The notes beneath the pieces were generated by a model, which ran no database searches, was not told the DNA's origin, and was given only the letters and a program-made list of their open reading frames with translations. A stretch of 24,426 bases of DNA from a virus (lineage: Duplodnaviria > Heunggongvirae > Uroviricota > Caudoviricetes): IMG/VR virus record IMGVR_UViG_3300029473_000227, positions 1 to 24,426 of that record; one strand, written 5' to 3'. The position numbers and the translations under genes are program-made. Every line of letters starts with the position of its first letter. Positions within the stretch are counted from its first letter, which is position 1. This document shows positions 1,322-24,426 of the stretch, in pieces.

Positions 1322-1607
1322 CCATTCCAAAGCCCATCTACGGGTGGGCTTGATAATGAAACCAGAATTTATTCTGGGCAACCAGTTACGGCAGTACCAC
1401 GAAACAACCCAAGCCAGTAAGTGGGGAAATAACACTGGCAGCCACTGAAAGATGAACCTCCTGCCTTATGGCAAAAAAGATTCTTTGTGGTGGCAGACTG
1501 ATGGAAAGACATCGGATAGAATAAAACAGTGGCTAGGGTAGCTCCCGAAAAGCGGAATCGTCACCGCCAGCCACTGAATCTATGACGAACAACTAGACGA
1601 GGTTGAT

Positions 1608-1996: not shown

Positions 1997-2239
1997 ATGG
2001 CAGAGATTATTCCCATGACTGAAGAACAGAAATTCCAGTTAGAGGTTTACAAACTGGTCATGAACCAGAACGCAGCCGCAGAAGAAGCATTTCAGTTCAT
2101 TGGTACTGACGAGCTGAAGCTTGAGCTATTCAAAATTCACTTCCAGTCAGGCGGCGCTAATTCAGATATCACGACCCGCACTATCGAAGCGGTGCGTAAA
2201 TCGAAGGAAGCGTTAGACCTGTTCACCGCTGGAGTGTGA
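1997..2239 (+). CDS. hypothetical acidic helical protein; stop lies 1 nt before the HExxH ORF start
   Basis: 80 aa; GGAG at 1987-1990, 6 nt before ATG; stop 2237-2239 and next ATG at 2241. Confidence 0.6.
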   Translation: MAEIIPMTEEQKFQLEVYKLVMNQNAAAEEAFQFIGTDELKLELFKIHFQSGGANSDITTRTIEAVRKSKEALDLFTAGV

Positions 2240-2240
2240 T

Positions 2241-2630
2241 ATGGCTAAGGCCAAATGGCACAAACTCCCGGCGTTCACCATTCCGCTGTTTCAAAGTGCA
2301 CACGTCTACCTCGCAACAACCAGAGAACAGTTTCAGCACGCTGATAAATTCCTTGGCGGCAGCGGGGATGAGAAGCCATTCAATCTTGGGCTTGCAAGCA
2401 ACTATGAAAACACTGATACGGGTGAGCGATGCTATCTGATTGGAGTATTCGATCAGCAGATCGCTACGCTCGTTCATGAGTGCGCCCACGTCTGCTTTTA
2501 CGTTTGCTCTGATGTCGGCGTGACGACAAGGCCTGAAGATGCCAACGAGACGTACTGTTACATGCTGGACAGGATGGTTAATCACTTCCTGCCATTCATT
2601 CAGGAGAAACAAGATGCATCACTGGAATAA
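2241..2630 (+). CDS. HExxH zinc-metallopeptidase-like protein, possibly ImmA/IrrE (COG2856) family
   Basis: 129 aa; GGAG 6 nt upstream; motif LVHECAHV followed 17 residues later by EDANETY, reminiscent of the HExxH...E-x-EAN signature. Family assignment is from motif memory only. Confidence 0.6.
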   Translation: MAKAKWHKLPAFTIPLFQSAHVYLATTREQFQHADKFLGGSGDEKPFNLGLASNYENTDTGERCYLIGVFDQQIATLVHECAHVCFYVCSDVGVTTRPEDANETYCYMLDRMVNHFLPFIQEKQDASLE

Positions 2631-2808
2631 TCAATCCCCTTATTGCCAATGCCAACGCTGCCCGTGCTGCGGGAAGATTGTTAACCAATTTACTGGCAAC
2701 AATTTCTTCAAGACTGGTTATGGATATGGTGTTGCGGGTAGCATTAATTGCTCTGGGGCTGCTGCTGAAACGACATCAAACACAGGCAAGCAGGAAGGAG
2801 CTAAGTAA
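2614..2808 (+). CDS. small cysteine-rich protein (CxCxxCxCC), putative zinc knuckle
   Basis: 64 aa; AGGAGA at 2602-2607, 6 nt before ATG; overlaps the HExxH ORF 3' end by 17 nt. The overlapping alternative frame (2678-2869) is an alternative reading. Confidence 0.4.
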   Translation: MHHWNNQSPYCQCQRCPCCGKIVNQFTGNNFFKTGYGYGVAGSINCSGAAAETTSNTGKQEGAK

Positions 2809-2897
2809 TGGTAATCAACGTTTGTTCAGGCTCTCAGGGCTTCGACAACCCATCCAAATTCCGCGATGAATGGGATAAGCAAGCAGAAGGGAAATAA
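2808..2897 (+). CDS. candidate 29-aa micro-ORF ([29 protein letters not shown]) upstream of terS
   Basis: AAGGAG at 2795-2800 with 7-nt spacing; ATG overlaps the previous stop (TAATG); ends 5 nt before the terS ATG. Too short for the ORF track. Confidence 0.25.
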
Positions 2898-2902
2898 TCA
2901 AT

Positions 2903-3391
2903 ATGGCAGCACCAAAGGGCAACCGATTTTGGGAGGCCCGCAGTAGTCATGGGCGAAATCCTAAATTCGAATCGCCTGAGGCGCTGTGGGCTGCTTGTTG
3001 TGAATACTTCGAGTGGGCTGATGATAACCCGTTATGGGAGGGTAAGGTATTTTCATATCAGGGAGAAATAATTAAGGCTAATGTCCCTAAGATGCGAGCC
3101 ATGACTATTTCAGGATTGTGTACCTTCCTTGATATCACCAGGCAAACATGGGGAACCTTCCGGTCAATGGAAGGTTTTTCTGACGTCACATCACGAGCGG
3201 AAGACATCATCTACGACCAGAAATTCTCTGGCGCAGCCGCTGACCTTCTCAACGCTAACATCATCGCCCGTGATTTGGGCCTCAAAGAGCAGTCGCAAGT
3301 TGAAGACGTGACACCTGATAAGGGAGATCGCGATAAGCGGCGCTCTCGTATCAAGGAGCTATTCAACCGTGGAACTGGACGCGATTCTTGA
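2903..3391 (+). CDS. terminase small subunit (P22 gp3-like)
   Basis: 162 aa, the same length as P22 gp3; N-terminus [38 protein letters not shown] and C-terminus [18 protein letters not shown] match recalled P22 gp3; central region diverged. Confidence 0.93.
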
Positions 3392-4868
3392 TAACCTGAG
3401 CGACGAAGAGCAAATCGAGTTGCTCGAGCTACTCGAAGAAGAAGAGAACTACCGGAACACACACCTGCTATATGAATTTACGCCATACAGCAAACAGCGT
3501 GAGTTCATCGACGCCGGGCATGACTATCCAGAGCGCTGTTTTATGGCTGGTAACCAGCTTGGTAAGTCATTTACTGGTGCTGCTGAAGTCGCGTTTCACC
3601 TTACCGGGCGTTATCCTGGCACAAAAGGCTATCCTGCTGATGGTAAATATGGCGGTGAGTGGAAAGGTAAGCGTTTCTATGAGCCTGTTGTCTTCTGGAT
3701 TGGCGGCGAGACAAACGAGACGGTAACCAAAACGACTCAACGCATCCTGTGCGGTCGTATTGAAGAGAATGATGAGCCGGGCTACGGTTCAATACCGAAA
3801 GAGGACATCATTAGCTGGAAGAAGTCTCCTTTCTTTCCGAACCTTGTTGATCATCTTCTGGTTAAGCATCACACGGCTGATGGCGTTGAAGATGGCATTT
3901 CAATCTGCTACTTCAAACCATACTCGCAAGGCCGCGCTCGCTGGCAGGGTGACACAATCCACGGCGTGTGGTTTGACGAAGAGCCACCATACAGCATTTA
4001 TGGCGAAGGTCTTACCCGTACCAACAAATACGGGCAATTCTCAATTCTGACGTTTACCCCGCTGATGGGGATGTCTGACGTTGTTACCAAGTTCCTGAAG
4101 AATCCCAGCAAGTCGCAGAAAGTGGTCAACATGACCATCTACGACGCTGAGCACTACACAGACGAACAGAAAGAGCAAATCATCGCATCTTATCCTGAGC
4201 ATGAGAGAGAGGCGCGTGCTCGCGGTATTCCTACGATGGGTAGTGGTCGAATCTTCCAGATACCGGAAGAGACAATTAAGTGTCAGCCGTTCGAGTGTCC
4301 TGATCACTTCTACGTAATTGGCGGGATGGATTTCGGATGGGATCACCCACAGGCGCAGGTTCAGCTTTGGTGGGATAAGGACGCAGACACAATCTACGTT
4401 TCACGCGTGTGGAAGGCGAAAGAAAAGACAGCCGTTCAGGCGTGGGGAGCTGTTAAATCATGGGCGCATAAAGTGCCAACAGCATGGCCTCATGACGGAA
4501 ACCAGCACGAGAAGGGCGGCGGTGAGCAGCTCAAAGGGCAGTATGCCGACGCTGGTTTTATGATGTTGCAGGAGCATGCGACATGGCCTGATGGCGGTAA
4601 TGCTGTGGAGCCTGGCATCACTGAATTGCGCGACATGATGCTCGATGGTCGCTTCAAAGTATTCAACACCTGTGAGCCATTCTTTGAGGAGTTCCGCCTC
4701 TATCACCGTGATGAAAACGGGAAGATCGTCAAGCTTAACGACGATGTTCTCTCAGCCGTTCGCTATGCATACATGATGCGCCGCTTCGCCAAAATGATGC
4801 GCGACATCAAAAAACCAAAAGAGAAAAAGATACCAGCCCCAATCAGGCCCATCGCACGGAGAACTTAA
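3369..4868 (+). CDS. terminase large subunit (P22 gp2-like)
   Basis: 499 aa from GTG 3369, overlapping the terS 3' end as in P22; N-terminus [37 protein letters not shown]; same length as P22 gp2. Confidence 0.93.
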
Positions 4869-7034
4869 ATGGCCGACGAAAACAGACTCAATTCCATTCT
4901 GTGTAAGTTTGACGCAGACTGGATGGCGAGCGATGAAGCCAGAACCGAGGCGACAAATGACCTGTATTTTAGCCGAGTGTCGCAATGGGATGACTGGCTA
5001 TCAAACTACACGACTCTGCAATATCGCGGACAATTCGATGTTGTTCGCCCGGTGGTCAGGAAACTGGTCGCAGAGATGCGCCGGAACCCTATCGACGTTC
5101 TCTTCCGACCCAAAGACGGTGCTAATCCTGATGCAGCCGATGTGTTGATGGGGATGTATCGTACTGATATGCGCCATAACACGGCAAAGATTGCCGTTAA
5201 CGTTGGCGTTCGTGAGCAGATAGAGTCCGGCGTTGGTGCATGGCGCCTGGTCACACAGTACGAAGACAACGACCCAACAAGCAACAATCAGGTAATCCGA
5301 CGCCTGCCAATCCATGAAGCCTGCTCACACGTCATATGGGACGCCAACAGCAAGCAGATGGATAAGAGCGACGCTAAGCACTGCACGGTGATTAACGCTT
5401 TGTCACGCAATGGTTGGAAAGAGTTCGCAGAGGATTACGGTATTGATCCTGACACCTTGCCATCTTTCCAGAATCCGAACGATACATGGCTGTTTCCGTG
5501 GGTATCGAATGATGTCGTCTACGTCGCTGAGTATTACGAGGTCGAAGAGAAGAAAGAGAAAGTCTTCATCTACCGCGACCCGCTGACAGGTGAGCCGGTC
5601 AGCTATTACCAGCAGGATATCAAAGACGTCATCGACGACCTGGCTAATCGTGGATTCATTAAGGTAGCAGAGCGCAAGGTGAAGCGTCGGCGTGTGTATA
5701 AGTCGATCATCACCTGTACGCAGATACTGAAAGACCGCGAGAAGATAGCAGGAGAGCATATTCCAATCGTTCCAGTGTATGGTGAATGGTCATTCGCTGG
5801 TGACAAGGAGTGCTACGAAGGAGTAGTAAGGCTGACGAAAGACGGGCAGCGACTTCGCAACATGATTATGTCGTTCAACGCCGACATCGTGGCGCGGAAC
5901 CCTCAGAAGAAACCTTTCTTCTATCCAGAGCAGATTGCCGGTTATGAGCACATGTACGGTGGCGATGACGCCTATCCGTACTATCTCATCAATCGCACTG
6001 ATGAAAACGGAGCTGATCTACCGCCAACGCCAGTTGCGTACATGGAGGAGCCTCAGGTTCCGCAGGCCAACGCCTACATGCTTGAGGCCGCCACCGCTGC
6101 AGTGAAGGAAGTCGCTAGCCTTGGCGTTGATGCTGAGGCTGCAAACGGGCAGGTGGCTTTCGATACCGTCAATCAACTGAACATGCGGGCAGACCTTGAG
6201 ACATACGTGTTTCAGGATAACCTGGCTACCGCAATGCGGCGTGATGGCGAGATTTATGCCTCAATGGTCAATGATATTTATGACGTTCCTCGTCATGTAA
6301 CGCTGACACTTGAAGATGGAAGCGAGAAAGACGTTCAACTCTACGCGCAAGTTGTCGATTACCAGTCCGGCAATGTGGTCACACTCAACGACATTCGTGG
6401 TCGCTATGAGTGCTATACGGACGTTGGGCCATCCTTCCAGAGCATGAAGGAACAGAACCGCGCAGAGATTCAGGAGTTACTAACCAAGGTTCCGCAAGGT
6501 ACTCCAGAGTTCCAGATGCTGATGCTGCAATACTTCACGCTGCTTGACGGTAAAGGCGTCGAGATGATGCGAGAGTACGCGAACAAGCAACTGGTGATGA
6601 TGGGGCTGAAGAAACCAGAAACACCTGAAGAGATGGAGATGGTACAGCAGGCTCAACAGCAGCCGCAGCAGCCATCAGCAGAGCAAATTCAGGCGCAGGG
6701 TATCCTTCTGCAAGGTCAGGCTGAATTGCTCAAGGCAGAGAACCAACAGGCGCAGATTCAGGTTGAAGCCGCCAAGGTTGAAGCCCAAAACCAACTCAAC
6801 GCCGCGAAGATTGCGGAAATCTTCAACAATATGGACCTCGACAAGCAGGCAGAACTGCGTGAGTACCTCAAGCTCGTAGGTCAATTCCAGCAACAGCGCA
6901 GCAAAGATGCTCGTGCTAACGCTGAGCTGCTTCTTAAAGATGCAGACCAGACTCATTCACAACGCATGGATTTCGCGAATCTTATGCGTCAAGTTCAAAT
7001 CCCCTCCGGCGGAGTAGCCGAGACACCTCAATAA
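4869..7034 (+). CDS. portal protein (P22 gp1-like)
   Basis: 721 aa; ATG immediately after the terL stop; glutamine- and alanine-rich C-terminal helical barrel region ([18 protein letters not shown]...) as in the P22 portal. Confidence 0.93.
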
Positions 7035-18029: not shown

Positions 18030-18097
18030 AGTTGAAGCCCCAACTGCGGGAACAGTCAGGGCTTCGGTTGTCAGTAAATCCGTGGAGAAAAACCAAC
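18030..18097 (-). ncRNA. sar: putative sar antisense RNA (complementary to the arc-ant intercistronic region and ant RBS)
   Basis: By analogy with P22 sar (about 68 nt). Minus-strand -10-like TATACT (plus 18104-18109) at the ant start; hairpin gaagccc...gggcttc in the intergenic region. Ends not determined. Confidence 0.35.
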
Positions 18098-19100: not shown

Positions 19101-19163
19101 ATGACAGACATTACCTACTCAACAGATGGTCAGCAACCATGTTTGCTGCCTTATAAGCTATAG
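19101..19163 (+). pseudogene. stranded ancestral tailspike 5' end (RBS + ATG ACA GAC ATT ACC = MTDIT) truncated by the HNH cassette
   Basis: GGAG at 19089-19092 then ATG 19101; the first five codons equal the P22 tailspike N-terminus MTDIT; frame terminates after 20 codons; the HNH stop codon (19111-19113) overlaps it. Confidence 0.55.
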
Positions 19164-19611
19164 CCGCTTCATCAATGGTGTTGAATCTCCCAAGGGTTAT
19201 GTTTTTACCTGAGACATTTATCTGAGCTTGCCATTGATTTCTGGCTTGACAGAAAGTTACCCCCTTGATTCCAGCATTGCTATTTCGAGGTCCGACATTT
19301 AATGCATTTACGACTCTGCTAACATCCCTAAGGTTTGAGATTGCGTTATTTCTTCTGTTTCTATCAATGTGGTCAATCTCTTGTTTGGGCCATTCGCCAT
19401 ATACATACAGCCAGGCAAGTCTATGTGCAAAATATCTTACGCCATCAATATTAATCGCGTTATATCCATAAGAAATTGTGCCAGCAACTTTCCCAACAGC
19501 ACCTCTGGCGCTTAATTTCTTTTTCCAAGTGAAAATTCCTGTTTCTTTATTGTAATCGAGAACCTCCATAAGGCGATCCCGAGTTACTACCTCGTGACGT
19601 CTCTTACTCAT
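19111..19611 (-). CDS. HNH homing endonuclease with C-terminal AP2 DNA-binding domain
   Basis: 166 aa from ATG 19611 (GGAG 8 nt upstream; the ORF track starts at TTG 19653); HNH motif [27 protein letters not shown]2-like [44 protein letters not shown]. Confidence 0.85.
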
Positions 19612-19651
19612 TATTTTCTCCGGAATGTTTATTATGCCAGAACAATTATAC
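19114..19651 (-). mobile_element. homing-endonuclease cassette inserted into the tailspike 5' coding region (approximate limits)
   Basis: Contains the HNH ORF, its RBS and a perfect minus-strand TATAAT (plus 19645-19650); flanked on the left by the ancestral tailspike start and on the right by the resumption of conserved tailspike codons (NVVVS at 19652). Confidence 0.6.
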
Positions 19652-21835
19652 AACGTTGTTGTTTCACAACCAAGTCAGTTATTTACTTTAGCTCGCTCGT
19701 TTAAAGCAAATGCTAATGGTAAAATTTATATCGGTAAAATTGACACGGACCCTGTAAACCCTGAAAACCAGATTCAGGTTTATGTGGAGAACGAAGATGG
19801 CTCTCACGTTCCTGTTTCGCAACCAATAATCATTAACGCCGCTGGTTATCCTGTATATAACGGACAGATTGCCAAATTCGTTACCGTGCAAGGCCATTCT
19901 ATGGCTGTGTACGATGCATATGGGGCGCAGCAATTCTATTTTCCTAATGTGCTGAAGTATGACCCTGATCAACTTGAACAGCGATTATCACTGCCTACAG
20001 CACCTGAGATTATAGGGGTATATCCATCAGGTAAATTAGCAGATGTATTAAATGATGTAACCCCGGAGCAATTCGGAGCTATCGGTGATGGGGTTGCTGA
20101 CGATACGCAGGCATTAAAGGCTATGTTTAAATACATCAATGACATGCCGATTTCATTCACAGACACAGCAACAGAACTTAACCCCCACCTGGATGTGGCA
20201 GCAAAACGTGTTGTTTTGCGCGGCCTGTACATGCACACAGAGACAATCTTTATTCCTTCTGGGGTGCAGATTTTCCAGCCTGGATACTCTTATTTCCGCC
20301 GAAACGTGCAGCAAGGTTTTTATTTCAACCCTCCTTCTGGGGAAGAAAACATGGCTGCTGTTGGTACTTATGTTTATTTGAAGTCCGGTAATACCTGGTA
20401 TCTTAATTCTGACCCAATGTTACTTCCACAGGGCGCACAGATAGATAATGGCACTATCCGCACAGGAGCTAGACACATTGATATTGAGAATCTTAGTATC
20501 ATTACCAAGCCTGGAACCTTGCTTGGTTTACGCTGGTTAGGTGCAGCAGGATGCACAACTCGCAATCTAAGTATTGGTGAGAACACACCAAACAGCACAG
20601 CATCAACCGCCAGAATTCCTAAGGTTGGTATGCTTCACAGTATTGCTTGGGGCAGTGTTCACACAACACCTAAGATTCTATACAAAACTCAAGGTGCTGT
20701 TTTCTACGAGCAAAACGGTGGTTCTGAGGTGAAAAACGCTTACATTGCTCGTCTTGGGCAGGATTCAACTTATTCAGAACAGGTAATTTATAAACCGGAA
20801 GATTTTGACGAAACCGGCGATGTCGCAATTACACAGTACGGGCGCAGTTCTGTGCAGTTCAGGTATTGTGTAACAGAAACATGCTCATTCATGTATGTTA
20901 ACCAGGGTGATGCAAGAAGTAACGGCGGACTTAAGGTTGACGGTTGTCACATGGAAGCCACGGATGGTAAGGCGAAACATTGTTTCTATATTATCAACTC
21001 AGACGCTGATATTCGATTAAACGGTCTGTTTATCCAGGATAGCTCCATTCCTTCCAGTAGCGTGATTTTTGTTAAAAATTGCCAGAAGGGAAGAAGTGTA
21101 ATTGATGTTCACGGATACATGATGTTCAACGGTTACCGATTGCTGGACGGGGAAAACTCTGGAGAAGTCGTAAACTTACGTAACCCAAACGGCGGTCAAT
21201 ACCAATACGGAAAGCTCGGCAAATGGTCGCTGGTTAATGAAGTTACCGGCGTTTCTCCTCAGACTTTGTACATTGATCCGGTTAACGGAGATGACGAAAA
21301 CTGGGGTTTCCACAGCGGAAAAACGCTAAAAACGTTAACTTATGCCGCCAAAATCTGCCGCATGTTTGGTGTAACCGATATCTATACTAACGCAGGTAGT
21401 ATTACATTAACTGCGGATACGGACCTGCCTTCTGCCACGATTCGTGGCGCTGGTGGGATCGTGTGTAACGCAAACGGGAGCTTAGTTGCCTCACGTAAAA
21501 CCAATGTGAACCTGACTCTAGCTGATGGGGTAACAAGCCCTGCTGGTTACCATCTCATAAAGATAAACACTACGGAGCCCGTCGTCGTAGTATCTACCTG
21601 CGATATGACCACAACAACTGCCGCGAACATATTTCTTTTCCAGTCGAACGGTAATGTTGAATGGACGCATAGGGCCGGTGGTGGTCTGGCGTGTTATCGT
21701 TATGCAGGCACTCAGTCAGCAACATATTCGGCAGTGATTGGTTTGAATATCAGGTCTACAACCAGACCAGCTATAGATTCGACACCTGTATCTGGTAATG
21801 TTGTTACTAAATACTCTTCTATTTTGAAATCTTAA
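19625..21835 (+). CDS. tailspike protein: conserved P22/HK620-type head-binding domain plus divergent beta-helix receptor-binding domain
   Basis: 736 aa; residues about 10-116 ([11 protein letters not shown]...NVLKYDPDQ) match the P22/HK620 tailspike N-terminal domain from memory; the rest is unlike P22. Start may be ATG 19634, which restores P22 spacing before NVVVS; neither ATG has a good SD. Confidence 0.88.
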
Positions 21836-22024
21836 AAATATATCCCCAGTAGGGGCTATATAAATTTAACATTTATTTAATCAATGAGTTCTAAAAGGCA
21901 TGAAGTCTATCATCCAAGTCTCAATCGATCGATACTTGCTGTGGTTGATGAGACAAAACTGAGACAAACAAAGCTTTGCATCGGTTTGCAAGGCTTTGTG
22001 CTATTCGATAGTTGTTAAGGTGGT

Positions 22025-23182
22025 TCACTCCACCTTCTCATCAAGCCAGTCCGCCCACCACTGCATCATTTCTCTGCGCTTATCGAGATACTGAGCATGG
22101 TTGTAAATTCCGCGCACAGATCCGCCGTTGGCATGTGCCAGTTGCACTTCAATAGCGTCAGCAGGCCATTCGTGCTCGTTCATAACCGTGCTGAATTCAT
22201 GCCTGAATCCGTGACCGCTTTCCAGACCCTCATAGCCGATTTGTTTGATCACAAGCAATACCGCATTCTCGCAGATTGGCTTCTTCTTATCGTTGCGCCC
22301 GGCAAAAACAAACTCTGATACTGGTTTAGTGATGGAGCTTAGCGTAGTGAGAAGTTCAACCACCTGGTCTGACATAGGAACCACATGAATTTTGCGTCCC
22401 TTCATCACACTGGCGTCGATGGTGATAATCCTGTTTTCAAAATCGACGTTCTTCCATTGCATGGAACGAAGCTCTTTCGTTCTTAGGGCTGTGTAGCGCA
22501 AAACTTTAGTCGCAATGAGCGATACGATACTTCCTGAAAATGTTGCCAGTGCTTTATTGAATGCCGGGATCTGGTCTGCAGGAAGAAACGGGAAGTTTTT
22601 CTTGCGGTATCCCTTCATGGCGTCAGCAAGGTCAGGTGCCGGGTTATATTTAGCCCTACCAGTGACAATAGCGTAACGGAAAACCTCGCCGCATCTTCTG
22701 CGGGCTTTATTTGCTCGCTCCATTGCACCGCGATCTTCAAATCTGCGGATTACTTCCAGCAGTTGCATCGGCTCAATCTCCTGAATTTCAAGGCCGCCGA
22801 TGATAGGTAAAATGTCGTCATCAAACATTTTTGCAAGTTCAGTCGCATACCCTACTGACCATACTTGCTTCTTGTGCTCGTACCATTCCTTGTAAATCGC
22901 ACTAAAGGAATTGTTGTTAGACGAAGCCTTTTTCGCCTTTACCGGATCGATGCCAACCGAGATGTCTTTCCTCGCAGTCCATGCCTTATCCCTTGCCTCC
23001 TGCAAAGTCATTAGCGGATATTTTCCTACGGTCAGGATTTTCTCCTTACCGTCAATCTTGTAGCGAAGCTGCCATACCTTTTTCCCGGATACAGGGACAT
23101 AAAGGTACAGGCCATTACCATCGAGAAGGCGGTATGGTTTTTCTTTCGGCTTTGCTGCTTCAATCTGCTTAACGGTGAGCAT
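22025..23182 (-). CDS. intS: tyrosine integrase (P4-type, IntS-like)
   Basis: 385 aa from ATG 23182 (MLTVKQIEAAKPKEKPYRLLDGNGLYLYV...); C-terminal catalytic region with ...HGFRHEF...LAHANGGSVRGIYNHAQY; adjacent to tRNA-Arg. The ORF-track GTG start at 23218 is considered less likely. Confidence 0.9.
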   Translation of the reverse strand: MLTVKQIEAAKPKEKPYRLLDGNGLYLYVPVSGKKVWQLRYKIDGKEKILTVGKYPLMTLQEARDKAWTARKDISVGIDPVKAKKASSNNNSFSAIYKEWYEHKKQVWSVGYATELAKMFDDDILPIIGGLEIQEIEPMQLLEVIRRFEDRGAMERANKARRRCGEVFRYAIVTGRAKYNPAPDLADAMKGYRKKNFPFLPADQIPAFNKALATFSGSIVSLIATKVLRYTALRTKELRSMQWKNVDFENRIITIDASVMKGRKIHVVPMSDQVVELLTTLSSITKPVSEFVFAGRNDKKKPICENAVLLVIKQIGYEGLESGHGFRHEFSTVMNEHEWPADAIEVQLAHANGGSVRGIYNHAQYLDKRREMMQWWADWLDEKVE

Positions 23183-23343
23183 GGGTAAAAATCCGGTGGG
23201 TAAAATTATTTTATCCACTTTTTACCCGTCACGGAGTGCGGCTGTCAACGATCTGAAGCGAACCATGACGAACTGTGAATCTACGGAAGGCTTGATATTC
23301 AGGGGATTTTGCGGACTAGTACGGATGGGAGAGAACTGATAAA

Positions 23344-23418
23344 TGGTGTCCCCTGCAGGAATCGAACCTGCAATTAGCCCTTAGGAGGGGCTCGTTATAT
23401 CCATTTAACTAAGAGGAC
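23344..23418 (-). tRNA. argW: tRNA-Arg (anticodon CCU), argW-like; prophage attachment site
   Basis: Reverse complement reads GTCCTCTTAGTTAAATGGATATAACGAGCCCCTCCTAAGGGCTAATTGCAGGTTCGATTCCTGCAGGGGACACCA (75 nt, CCA end, T-loop GGTTCGATTCC), matching E. coli argW as recalled. Confidence 0.9.
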
Positions 23419-23493
23419 AATGCGGCATGAGTATACCCGCTAATGGAGTGCGGGGTAAGTACGCTGCCGCTCGATTGCTTAAACCCTCGCCAT

Positions 23494-24426
23494 TTATGCC
23501 GGGTTTTTATAATTTTTCTTAATGTTTTCCGCACGTTCTGCTTTTTGGCGTGCTTCTGCTTTACGCTTATTGCTCATGTCGTTACGAATCTGTGCATGAC
23601 TCATTAACGCGAAGATAAAGGTGCCGCCGCAGATGTTCCCCGCTAAAGTAGGTAGTGCGAAGGGCCAGATGAAATCGCTCCAGTGCAGCGTACCGTTAAA
23701 CACCAGATAGAGGATTTCAACAGAACCGACCACGATATGGGTGGTGTCACCCAGGGCAATAAGCCAGGTCATCAATATAATCACCACAATCTTTGCCGCA
23801 CCCGCTGCAGGAAACATCCAAACCATAGTGGCGATCAGCCAGCCGGAAATGATCGCGTTGGCAAACATCTCGCTGGGGGTGTTCTTCATCACATCCATGC
23901 CGATTTTGACAAATGCATCGCGAGTTTCTTCATTGAAGATAGGCATATATTCAAATGCCCACGCCGCAATACCTGTCCCGAGAATATTACCCAGCAGCAC
24001 GACGCCCCATAACCGTATAAGTAAGCCGACGTTGCTCATTGTCGGTTTTTGCATGACGGGTAGTACCGCAGTCACGGTATTTTCGGTAAATAATTGCTGG
24101 CGGGCCATAATGACGATAATAAAACCAAAGGTATAACCGAGATTCTCCAGCAAGAAGCTGCCCGGCACACCTTCCAGTTCGACATGAAATATCCCTTTTG
24201 CCAGTAACGAAGCGCCCATCGACAGACCCGCCGCAATGGCTGACCACAGTAGCGCCATTGCGTCGCGTTCCAGCTCTTTTTCACCATCCTGGCGGATATG
24301 CTCATGAATTGCCATCGCCCGGGAGGGGAGTCGGTCTTCATCTATTTCTATTTTTTTGCCGCGCTCTTTTTCTTCGCTCTCAACTTCAATTTCGTCGCTG
24401 TGTTGATCAATTTTGTCGTTGTCCAT
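23494..24426 (-). CDS. yfdC: inner-membrane formate/nitrite-transporter-family protein (YfdC-like), host chromosome
   Basis: 310 aa polytopic membrane protein; in E. coli K-12, yfdC flanks argW and intS; complete ORF with ATG at the window end. Confidence 0.75.
   Translation of the reverse strand: MDNDKIDQHSDEIEVESEEKERGKKIEIDEDRLPSRAMAIHEHIRQDGEKELERDAMALLWSAIAAGLSMGASLLAKGIFHVELEGVPGSFLLENLGYTFGFIIVIMARQQLFTENTVTAVLPVMQKPTMSNVGLLIRLWGVVLLGNILGTGIAAWAFEYMPIFNEETRDAFVKIGMDVMKNTPSEMFANAIISGWLIATMVWMFPAAGAAKIVVIILMTWLIALGDTTHIVVGSVEILYLVFNGTLHWSDFIWPFALPTLAGNICGGTFIFALMSHAQIRNDMSNKRKAEARQKAERAENIKKNYKNPA

What the first reader, a model, noticed from the sequence alone, without database searches (positions are those of the whole stretch)
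21836..22024. Tailspike and integrase converge with only 190 bp between them: no O-antigen conversion genes
In P22, Sf6 and the K-12 CPS-53 remnant, gtr or oac serotype-conversion genes sit near int and the tailspike. Here the space holds only a short spacer with an imperfect hairpin (ccccagtagggg), a gagacaaa direct repeat and a ttgca...ttgcaa palindrome. Either conversion genes lie elsewhere or were lost. The repeats could be protein-binding sites.
Basis: partly seen in the sequence, partly recalled or inferred. Interest (0 to 1): 0.4.

Follow-up and report, generated by a model that had tools for sequence, protein, structure and literature searches.

The report
Deletion scar of phage gtrABC genes
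The short gap between the tailspike and integrase genes of this E. coli prophage is the scar left when its three O-antigen-modifying genes (gtrABC) were cut out between two copies of a 12-base repeat, which is a tidy but ordinary case of a phage losing accessory genes.

Summary
The tailspike gene (19625/19634-21835, +) and an IntS-type integrase gene (22025-23182, -) converge on a 189-bp gap (21836-22024).

The window is the right end of a P22-like prophage inserted at E. coli argW. The attL core lies at 23343-23358, on the far side of int, so the gap is not an att site.

In relatives this slot holds oac (Sf6), an O-antigen modification gene (HK620), neuO (CUS-3) or gtrABC (HF4s and many E. 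coli). Kapi1 and Dewey have empty slots.

In this prophage the genes were lost:
- Five other E. coli contigs carry the same tailspike type, 91% identical in L013. In four it is intact (733 aa) and in one disrupted. All have gtrC-gtrB-gtrA between tailspike and int.
- In three of these contigs a 12-nt direct repeat, TTTAACATTTAT, flanks that cluster, with the copies 2,681 bp apart.
- The window keeps one copy (21865-21876). It matches the gtrC side to its left and the gtrA leader to its right.

What remains is a convergent terminator hairpin, an orphan gtrA start and leader, and the int terminator annotated in HK620. The finding is ordinary and of low interest.

The parts
19634..21835 (+). Tailspike gene. 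It is 733 aa as called on identical contigs; the longest ORF starts at 19625. The N-terminus is a P22 head-binding domain and the receptor-binding part is rare.
   Evidence: Pfam Head_binding, E = 4.9e-64. The identical protein P0001 occurs on 11 contigs. The receptor-binding part has no match at >=85% nt identity in 5,426 complete E. coli genomes.
21838..21861 (.). Hairpin ATATA-T-CCCC / AGTA / GGGG-C-TATAT, inferred to be a two-way terminator between the tailspike gene and, formerly, gtrC. On the - strand it is followed by TTTTT. A G->T change at 21843 weakens it here.
   Evidence: Fold energy is -9.9 to -10 kcal/mol here, against -16.6 to -16.7 kcal/mol for the perfect 10-bp stem in L013. 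L025 has a compensating C:G->A:T pair. The consensus terminator scan did not call it.
21865..21876 (.). Deletion junction: a single copy of the 12-nt repeat TTTAACATTTAT. In gtr-bearing relatives the repeat is both the end of gtrC (CAT AAA TGT TAA on the - strand) and the start of gtrA (ATAAATGTTAAA).
   Evidence: The window is 99/100 identical to L013 up to and including the repeat and 18/48 after it. It is 98/100 identical to E41 from the repeat rightwards and 15/48 before it. L022-L024 have two copies 2,681 bp apart.
21819..21872 (-). Orphan gtrA start codon (21872-21870) heading a 17-codon chimeric remnant [20 protein letters not shown]. It runs through the hairpin into the tailspike 3' end and is probably meaningless.
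   Evidence: Translation. Alignment to the E41, L013 and HF4s gtrA start, MLKLF....
21877..21948 (-). Orphan gtr leader, meaning the 5' untranslated region and presumed promoter of the lost operon. It has one GATC, at 21927.
   Evidence: Near-identical to the intS-gtrA intergenic region of E. coli E41 and L022-L024. The same segment precedes a different cargo gene in HK620. Promoter activity is inferred only; the consensus scan found no site here.
21949..21968 (-). The TGAGACAAA x2 direct repeat. Read on the int strand it is the U-rich tail (UUUGUCUCAGUUUUGUCUCA) directly 3' of the int terminator stem.
   Evidence: One or other copy is altered in E41, L013, HF4s and HK620.
21968..21999 (-). 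Stem-loop terminator of the int (excision) transcript.
   Evidence: HK620 coordinate 1 equals window 21977. The HK620 feature 'terminator for prophage excision transcript' at 38289..23 therefore maps to window 21968-21999. Inverted repeat I4. Fold energy -16.3 kcal/mol, z = -3.2.
22025..23182 (-). IntS-type tyrosine integrase, 385 aa as called on identical contigs. The ORF extends to a GTG at 23218.
   Evidence: Pfam. 95-97% nt identity to Sf6, HK620 and CUS-3 int. Gene calls on identical contigs.
23343..23358 (.). attL core ATGGTGTCCCCTGCAG at the 3' end of argW. Phage homology ends at 23358.
   Evidence: Identical to the annotated Sf6 and HK620 attP cores. Identity to the phage arm falls from 58-59/60 to 17/60 past the core.
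23344..23418 (-). tRNA-Arg(CCT), the argW gene, which is the bacterial integration target.
   Evidence: ARAGORN. Rfam tRNA, 63.4 bits.
23494..24426 (-). Chromosomal yfdC (formate/nitrite transporter family), which is host DNA.
   Evidence: Pfam. Region 23219-24426 is 99.8% identical to E. coli and is found in 5,426 of 5,426 genomes.

Best explanation
The 189-bp gap is the scar of a precise 2.68-kb deletion that removed a gtrA-gtrB-gtrC O-antigen glucosylation operon from a P22-like prophage integrated at argW.

**Ancestral layout (shown in relatives).** The order was argW/attL, int, int terminator, gtr leader, gtrA, gtrB, gtrC, hairpin, then the convergent tailspike gene.

**The event.** The 12-nt sequence TTTAACATTTAT occurred twice in direct orientation. 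One copy covered the ribosome-binding region, ATG and first codons of gtrA. The other covered the last three codons and stop of gtrC. Recombination or replication slippage between the two copies removed everything between them and left one copy, at 21865-21876. The junction is shown; the mechanism that produced it is inferred.

**What remains, left to right:**
1. The hairpin that separates the convergent tailspike and gtr transcripts. It is now weakened by one mismatch.
2. An orphan gtrA start codon.
3. The orphan gtr leader and presumed promoter.
4. The stem-loop terminator of the int transcript. Its U-rich tail contains the TGAGACAAA repeat.

**Consequences.** The gap therefore works only as two transcription stops between convergent genes (inferred from structure and from the HK620 annotation). 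The lysogen is predicted not to glucosylate its O-antigen (inferred).
For: **Prophage layout.** The window reads yfdC, argW, attL core, int, gap, tailspike. The attL core is identical to the Sf6 and HK620 attP cores.

**Gtr-bearing relatives with the same tailspike type.**
- The closest relative tailspike, P0002 (91% aa identity), is followed on L013 by gtrC, gtrB and gtrA.
- Four further E. coli contigs (L022-L025) carry the full layout mlaA, yfdC, intS, gtrA, gtrB, gtrC, tailspike at the same chromosomal site.
- The tailspike is intact (733 aa) in L023 and L025 and disrupted in L022 and L024.

**The junction.**
- The window is 99/100 identical to L013 up to and including the repeat, then at random level (18/48).
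- It is 98/100 identical to the E41 gtrA leader from the repeat onward, and at random level (15/48) before it.

**The repeat.**
- L022-L024 have the exact 12-nt repeat on both sides of the cluster, 2,681 bp apart. L013 and L025 share 10 nt.
- Deleting between the repeats in silico reproduces window 21736-22124 at 373-375 of 389 positions.

**Direction of the change.** The GtrC C-terminus ...VIDFEHKC aligns with ...VIDFNMSCK in a 48%-identical homolog. The gtrA start MLKLF is the normal GtrA N-terminus. Both repeat copies are therefore native gene ends, and the single hybrid copy is the derived state.

**Not an assembly artefact.** The identical gap occurs on all six contig stretches examined (L007-L012, drawn from 11 contigs carrying the identical tailspike). 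Their names indicate different assemblers (k127, k119, NODE, scaffold, Logan).

**The terminators.** Fold energies are. L025 carries a compensating base-pair change in the hairpin. The HK620 terminator annotation maps exactly onto 21968-21999.
Against: - No sequenced immediate parent was found. The gtr-bearing relatives differ from the window by about 14-16% in tailspike nucleotides, so the event is reconstructed from cousins.
- The same junction could have arisen during a tailspike-module swap (illegitimate right-hand crossover at the repeat) rather than by a simple internal deletion. The two routes cannot be told apart.
- The consensus terminator scan called neither hairpin.
- The gtr promoter in the leader is not identified.
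- The early-left part of the prophage was not seen, so a different conversion gene elsewhere is not excluded. Kapi1 modifies O-antigen without any recognisable gene (PMC8787464).
Confidence: 0.85

Rival explanations
1. The slot was always empty in this lineage. On this view the gtr-bearing relatives acquired the cassette by insertion into a window-like site, and the 10-12-nt repeats are an insertion footprint.
For: A direct repeat flanking a cassette, with a single copy at the empty site, looks the same whichever way the change went. Other argW P22-like phages (Kapi1, Dewey) have empty slots. gtrABC clusters are described as highly mobile (PMC2629481).
Against: - The window retains about 95 nt of gtr leader plus the gtrA ATG and first codons. 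These have no role without gtrA.
- Both repeat copies are native coding ends. The GtrC C-terminus is conserved in a 48%-identical homolog, and the GtrA N-terminus is normal.
- No known insertion mechanism makes a 12-bp duplication for such cassettes (own knowledge).
- The Kapi1 and Dewey spacers are not homologous to this one.
Confidence: 0.05
2. The gap is a recombination or regulatory protein-binding region. The hairpin, direct repeat and palindrome would be Int arm-type, IHF or repressor sites.
For: The TGAGACAAA pair is unlikely by chance: 2 copies against 0.2 expected in the window, and they are adjacent. The integrase has an arm-binding domain.
Against: - The att core is at 23343-23358, upstream of int.
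- The HK620 att repeats are annotated at record positions 829-1463, none of them in the gap equivalent.
- The palindrome is the HK620-annotated int terminator.
- One or other repeat copy is mutated in E41, L013, HF4s and HK620.
- The P22-type Dam/OxyR gtr switch needs four GATC sites, and only one is present.
Confidence: 0.05
3. The gap encodes something of its own: a small protein (the 44-aa ORF at 21884-22018 on the + strand, or the 17-aa remnant) or a small RNA driven by the orphan gtr promoter and running antisense to the tailspike 3' end.
For: Small ORFs exist. The leader, and presumably its promoter, is intact and points at the tailspike 3' end. The hairpin that should stop such a transcript is weakened here.
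Against: - No Rfam family matches; the best hit has E = 0.71 and is an implausible miRNA family.
- The ATG of the 44-aa ORF is absent from the HF4s/L013-type leader.
- The 17-aa ORF is a chimera created by the deletion.
- On the - strand the hairpin is still followed by TTTTT.
Confidence: 0.04
4. The short gap is an assembly artefact, a metagenome assembler having collapsed the two repeat copies.
For: The identical tailspike is known only from metagenome and read-archive assemblies.
Against: - A 12-nt repeat is far below the k-mer sizes shown in the contig names (k119, k127).
- The exact gap sequence occurs in all six contig stretches examined (L007-L012), from several samples and from assemblers that differ by name. 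One is a 351-kb scaffold.
- The deletion lineage has its own tailspike allele, about 9% different in protein from the gtr-bearing ones.
Confidence: 0.01

Closest known systems
The tailspike-int accessory-gene ('moron') slot of argW-integrating P22-like phages: Sf6 (oac), HK620 (O-antigen modification gene), CUS-3 (neuO), HF4s/N7 and E. coli prophages (gtrABC), and K-12 CPS-53 (intS-gtrABS)
   Same: - The same integrase family (95-97% nt identity).
- The same attP/attL core upstream of int.
- The same int terminator.
- The same convergent tailspike.
- The gap keeps the same int-gtrA leader as E41 and L022-L024.
   Different: The cargo genes are gone. Only the gtrA start, the last codons of gtrC and the flanking terminators remain.
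E. coli prophages on contigs L022-L025 (GCA_032285765.1, GCA_052421135.1, SRR25469303, GCA_903976515.1), which have the parental-type architecture
   Same: The same chromosomal site (mlaA-yfdC-argW), the same int, leader and hairpin, and the same tailspike type. The 733-aa gene is intact in L023 and L025.
   Different: - They carry the 2,681-bp gtrA-gtrB-gtrC block between two copies of the repeat.
- Their tailspike genes differ from the window's by about 14-16% in nucleotides.
- Two of them (L022, L024) have disrupted tailspike genes.
Phages Kapi1 and Dewey, argW-type P22-like phages with an empty tailspike-int slot
   Same: The tailspike and int converge with only about 170-240 bp between them and no recognisable conversion gene. 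Kapi1 also has an HNH endonuclease gene before the tailspike.
   Different: Their spacers are not homologous to this one and carry no gtr leader or start remnant. Kapi1 still alters O-antigen by an unidentified route (PMC8787464).
The P22/L gtrABC operon with Dam/OxyR phase variation
   Same: The same kind of three-gene glucosylation operon, next to the tailspike and transcribed towards it.
   Different: In P22 attP lies between gtrA and int. Here att is upstream of int. The leader here has one GATC rather than four, so the P22-type switch is not expected.

Membership tests
P22-like (Lederbergvirus) prophage with a Sf6/HK620-type IntS integration module at argW | Tyrosine integrase with an arm-binding domain and a catalytic domain, closely related to Sf6/HK620/CPS-53 IntS | tested here: met
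   Pfam Arm-DNA-bind_3, Phage_int_M and Phage_integrase. 95-97% nt identity to the Sf6, HK620 and CUS-3 int genes.
P22-like (Lederbergvirus) prophage with a Sf6/HK620-type IntS integration module at argW | att core identical to the 3' end of tRNA-Arg(CCT) and located upstream of int | tested here: met
   ATGGTGTCCCCTGCAG at 23343-23358 is identical to the annotated Sf6 and HK620 attP cores and overlaps the argW 3' end. Phage homology stops there.
P22-like (Lederbergvirus) prophage with a Sf6/HK620-type IntS integration module at argW | P22-type virion module with a tailspike that carries the N-terminal head-binding domain | tested here: met
   Head_binding, E = 4.9e-64. P22 portal, coat, scaffold, gp4, gp16, Mnt, Arc and Ant Pfam hits on the window and on matching contigs carrying the same gene order. 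sar RNA.
gtrABC O-antigen glucosylation operon | Presence of gtrA (GtrA_DPMS_TM), gtrB (family-2 glycosyltransferase) and gtrC (Glucos_trans_II) genes | tested here: not met
   tblastn with GtrA, GtrB and GtrC from L013, E41 and HF4s against the whole window gave no hit better than E = 0.4. Only the ATG plus about 8-12 nt of gtrA and the leader remain.
Other prophage O-antigen or capsule modification genes (Oac/OafA acyltransferases, HK620 O-antigen modification protein) | A homologous ORF anywhere in the window | tested here: not met
   tblastn with Sf6 Oac, the HK620 protein and 611R6 OafA gave no hit better than E = 1.1. The 10 kb to the left of the window, seen on a matching contig (L018) that carries the same first gene and gene order, also has no such Pfam hit. 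The early-left region was not seen.
Phage attachment site (attP/attL/attR) with Int arm-type and IHF sites | Core sequence shared with the bacterial target lying inside the element | tested here: not met
   The core is 1.3 kb away, at 23343-23358. The HK620 att repeats are annotated outside the gap equivalent.
Phage attachment site (attP/attL/attR) with Int arm-type and IHF sites | Specific binding of Int or IHF to the repeats | not testable with these tools
   This needs gel-shift or footprinting.
Intrinsic (Rho-independent) terminator | Stable GC-containing stem-loop followed by a U-tract, conserved as a structure | tested here: inconclusive
   - Both hairpins fold better than shuffles: z = -2.1 here and -4.2 in relatives for the first, z = -3.2 for the second.
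- L025 has a compensating pair in the first hairpin.
- HK620 annotates the second as a terminator.
- The simple consensus scan called neither, and termination was not measured.
P22-type Dam/OxyR phase-variable gtr promoter | Four GATC sites in two pairs within OxyR half-sites upstream of gtrA | tested here: not met
   There is only one GATC in the gap, at 21927. The requirement is taken from PMC8022706.

The most novel reading that the evidence does not exclude
The 10-12-nt direct repeat that brackets the gtr cluster in all five gtr-bearing relatives may not be a coincidence. It could be a maintained 'boundary sequence' that makes the seroconversion cassette recurrently lost, a population-level off switch. 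After loss, the retained leader might also drive a short transcript antisense to the tailspike 3' end through the weakened hairpin, changing tailspike expression.
Probability: 0.06. Interest if true: 0.45.

Novelty: new member of a known kind. Interest (0 to 1): 0.2.

Why it matters
The conversion genes were present in the ancestor and were lost by a clean repeat-mediated deletion. The odd motifs in the gap are leftover terminators and an orphaned operon leader, not binding sites for recombination proteins.

In practical terms, lysogens of this prophage are predicted to keep an unmodified O-antigen. They would therefore stay open to adsorption by this phage and by the T7-like phages that share its receptor-binding domain.

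More broadly, this is a well-documented single example of how accessory genes leave mosaic P22-like genomes. It does not reveal a new mechanism.

Tried and rejected
- **attP hypothesis.** My first working idea was that a tailspike next to int meant a circular-form phage genome with attP in the gap. I rejected it once tRNA-Arg and yfdC were found beyond int and the attL core was mapped to 23343-23358.
- **Searches for the junction elsewhere.** Exact-pattern scans with the hairpin plus repeat found nothing in IMG/VR, JGI metagenomes or GTDB species representatives. Megablast of the gap against 5,426 complete E. coli genomes found no record covering the tailspike-proximal 29 nt. The tailspike receptor-binding part is absent from those genomes and from the phage collection at megablast sensitivity.
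- **RNA families.** Rfam has nothing credible in the gap.
- **Consensus scan.** No promoter was called in the leader, and neither hairpin was called as a terminator. The only 'promoter' called in the gap sits in the AT-rich hairpin region and is taken as spurious.
- **Kapi1 and Dewey.** Their empty slots were compared as possible sister scars but are not homologous.
- **Rest of the prophage.** Walking leftwards beyond 10 kb to inspect the early-left region was not possible, because look-ups are restricted to window-encoded proteins.

Full report
**1. What is in the window**

The window holds the right-hand 23 kb of a P22-like prophage plus about 1.1 kb of E. coli chromosome. Pfam and gene calls on matching contigs that carry the same gene order give the following layout:

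- lysis genes, then terminase (3369-4868), portal, scaffold, coat, tail and ejection proteins;
- the immunity-I region (mnt, arc, ant), with sar RNA at 18030-18097;
- an HNH/AP2 endonuclease gene on the - strand;
- the tailspike gene (19625/19634-21835, +), which has the P22 head-binding domain.

Beyond the tailspike gene the order is as follows:

- the 189-bp gap (21836-22024);
- an IntS-type tyrosine integrase gene on the - strand (22025-23182, with the ORF running to 23218);
- tRNA-Arg(CCT), which is argW (23344-23418, -);
- yfdC (23494-24426, -).

The region from argW to yfdC is 99.8% identical to E. coli and is present in all 5,426 complete genomes searched.

**2. The observation**

No gtrA, gtrB, gtrC, oac, OafA-type or HK620-type O-antigen modification homolog exists anywhere in the window (tblastn, all E >= 0.4). 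None appears in the 10 kb to the left of the window either, as seen on a matching contig (L018) that carries the same first gene and gene order.

**3. The gap is not an att site**

In P22 attP lies between gtrA and int. In the Sf6/HK620 lineage, however, the annotated attP core lies upstream of int. That 16-nt core, ATGGTGTCCCCTGCAG, is at window 23343-23358 and overlaps the 3' end of argW. Identity to the Sf6 and HK620 phage arm is 58-59 of 60 up to the core and falls to 17 of 60 immediately after it.

So int and the tailspike lie at the same end of the integrated prophage. The gap is internal phage DNA, 1.3 kb from the recombination site.

**4. What relatives have in this slot**

| Phage or strain | Content of the tailspike-int slot |
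|---|---|
| Sf6 | oac |
| HK620 | a 408-aa O-antigen modification gene |
| CUS-3 | neuO |
| HF4s | gtrA-gtrB-gtrC |
| 611R6 | an OafA-type acetylase plus small ORFs |
| E. coli E41 | intS-gtrA-gtrB-gtrC-tailspike at argW |
| Kapi1 | empty |
| Dewey | empty |

Many other complete E. coli genomes resemble E41. The 40 best megablast hits all list intS next to yfdG/gtrA, and 82 genomes share the gap from the gtrA start onward.

The Kapi1 and Dewey spacers are unrelated to this one. The Kapi1 authors tested the small ORF in that slot and saw no LPS effect (PMC8787464).

**5. The scar**

The right-hand 160 bp of the gap (21865-22024) is almost identical to the intS-gtrA intergenic region of E41. This includes the gtrA start codon, read on the - strand at 21872-21870, and the next few bases.

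The tailspike itself is rare. Its closest P22-type relative, P0002, is 91% identical. On contig L013 that relative is followed directly by gtrC, gtrB and gtrA.

The junction can be read from three comparisons:

- The window matches L013 at 99 of 100 positions through the tailspike 3' end, the hairpin and the last three codons plus stop of gtrC. Identity stops after TTTAACATTTAT (18 of 48 beyond it).
- The window matches E41 at 98 of 100 positions from that same 12-mer rightwards, and at 15 of 48 to its left.
- GtrC of L013 (P0121) is also encoded on four E. coli contigs, L022-L025, three of them NCBI isolate assemblies. These have the full layout mlaA, yfdC, intS, gtrA, gtrB, gtrC, tailspike. 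The tailspike gene is intact (733 aa) in L023 and L025 and disrupted in L022 and L024.

In L022-L024 the 12-mer TTTAACATTTAT occurs on both sides of the gtr cluster, 2,681 bp apart. In L013 and L025 the shared repeat is 10 nt. Removing the interval between the repeats in silico reproduces window 21736-22124 at 373-375 of 389 positions.

**6. Direction of the change**

Two observations show that both repeat copies are native gene ends:

- The gtrC-side copy encodes the native C-terminus ...VIDFEHKC*. A 48%-identical homolog, P0122, ends ...VIDFNMSCK.
- The gtrA-side copy contains the normal GtrA start, MLKLF.

The single hybrid copy in the window is therefore the derived state, a deletion. It is not an ancestral empty site that later received a cassette.

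The mechanism is inferred. It was either slippage or illegitimate recombination at the 12-bp microhomology within one genome, or an illegitimate right-hand crossover at the same repeat during a tailspike-module exchange. The gtr-bearing cousins differ from the window by about 14-16% in tailspike nucleotides, so the immediate parent has not been sampled.

**7. Not an artefact**

The exact 189-bp gap is present on all six contig stretches examined (L007-L012), out of 11 contigs that carry the identical tailspike. They come from several human-gut samples, and their names indicate different assemblers. One is a 351-kb scaffold with the same yfdC-mlaA-fadL flank. A 12-nt repeat is far shorter than the k-mer sizes shown in the contig names.

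**8. What the leftover motifs are**

*The CCCCAGTAGGGG hairpin.* It sits between the convergent tailspike and (former) gtrC genes.
- In L013 and L022-L024 it is a perfect 10-bp stem (-16.6 kcal/mol; 0 of 200 shuffles fold as well).
- In L025 a C:G pair is replaced by A:T on both sides, which argues that the structure is under selection.
- On the - strand it is followed by TTTTT.
- In the window a G->T change at 21843 introduces a mismatch and weakens the fold to -9.9 kcal/mol.

*The palindrome at 21968-21999.* It maps exactly onto the HK620 feature 'terminator for prophage excision transcript' (HK620 38289..23, with HK620 position 1 equal to window 21977).

*The TGAGACAAA pair.* Read on the int strand, it is the U-rich stretch immediately 3' of that terminator stem. 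One or other copy is altered in E41, L013, HF4s and HK620, so it is not conserved as a repeat.

*The segment between the two hairpins (21877-21948).* This is the orphaned gtr leader.
- A promoter there is inferred from its position only. The consensus scan found none.
- It has a single GATC, unlike the four-GATC Dam/OxyR switch of P22 gtr.
- Rfam finds nothing in the gap.
- The 17-codon ORF that starts at the orphan ATG ([17 protein letters not shown]) is a by-product of the deletion.

**9. Comparison with the known, and verdict**

This is a member of the well-described Sf6/HK620/CUS-3 group of argW-integrating P22-like phages. The tailspike-int slot is their known site for surface-modification accessory genes. 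gtrABC clusters are documented as highly mobile among phages (PMC2629481).

The only new thing is this particular allele, a precise repeat-mediated loss of gtrABC. It is seen so far only in metagenome assemblies. It is absent from 5,426 complete E. coli genomes, IMG/VR, JGI metagenomes and GTDB representatives.

Its 'lost' alternative is supported and its binding-site idea is not. The finding is ordinary, and I score interest at about 0.2.

Noticed in passing
window 19990-21835 (tailspike residues ~120-736): The receptor-binding part of the tailspike is 87-93% identical to 833-aa proteins that have a T7-type tail-fibre N-terminus (P0003, P0005, P0006), found on contigs of about 38.7-40.5 kb. 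The same receptor-binding module is therefore shared between P22-like and T7-like podoviruses. It is absent at >=85% nt identity from 5,426 complete E. coli genomes and from the phage collection.
   Followed up: partly
L013 10594-11326: On this contig the tailspike-gtrCBA-leader block is followed by only the last ~60 nt of intS. Unrelated DNA and dacD/sbmC/yeeA-like chromosomal genes come next. The gtr block seems to have travelled with an int 3' stub into a prophage at another site.
   Followed up: partly
L025 (reverse complement) about 5970-5999, the hairpin behind the tailspike: There is a compensating double change in the hairpin stem (GCCCC/GGGGC becomes GACCC/GGGTC) that keeps a perfect 10-bp stem. 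This is evidence that the structure is selected.
   Followed up: yes
window 21836-22110 compared with E. coli genomes: Homology of the int 3' flank to other E. coli genomes breaks at a few discrete points: window ~21865, ~21894, ~21945-21956, ~21989 and ~22027-22031. This suggests preferred mosaic boundaries where different cargo joins the int module.
   Followed up: no
window 19111-19653 (-): An HNH/AP2-domain endonuclease gene is wedged between ant and the tailspike gene. It is 166 aa as called on identical contigs. Kapi1 has one at the same position.
   Followed up: no
window 18030-18097 (-) and 1526-1588 (+): Rfam hits above the gathering score: sar RNA (95.6 bits), the antisense RNA of the P22 immunity-I region, and int-alpA RNA (42 bits) in the region after the lysis genes.
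   Followed up: no
window 22025-23218 (-): The longest integrase ORF (397 aa, GTG start at 23218) is probably an over-call. Identical contigs, Sf6 and HK620 use a 385-aa gene starting at window 23182.
   Followed up: partly
proteins P0122 and P0009: A 48%-identical GtrC homolog and a 75%-identical receptor-binding-domain homolog both list a longest contig of 38,458 bp. They may be one phage that pairs a related tailspike with a related gtrC. This was not checked.
   Followed up: no
L015 (phage IME10) 1-3600: Only about 45 bp separate the last + strand ORF (2008-3474) from the int stop. IME10 may be another P22-like phage with an empty slot. The record is almost unannotated.
   Followed up: no
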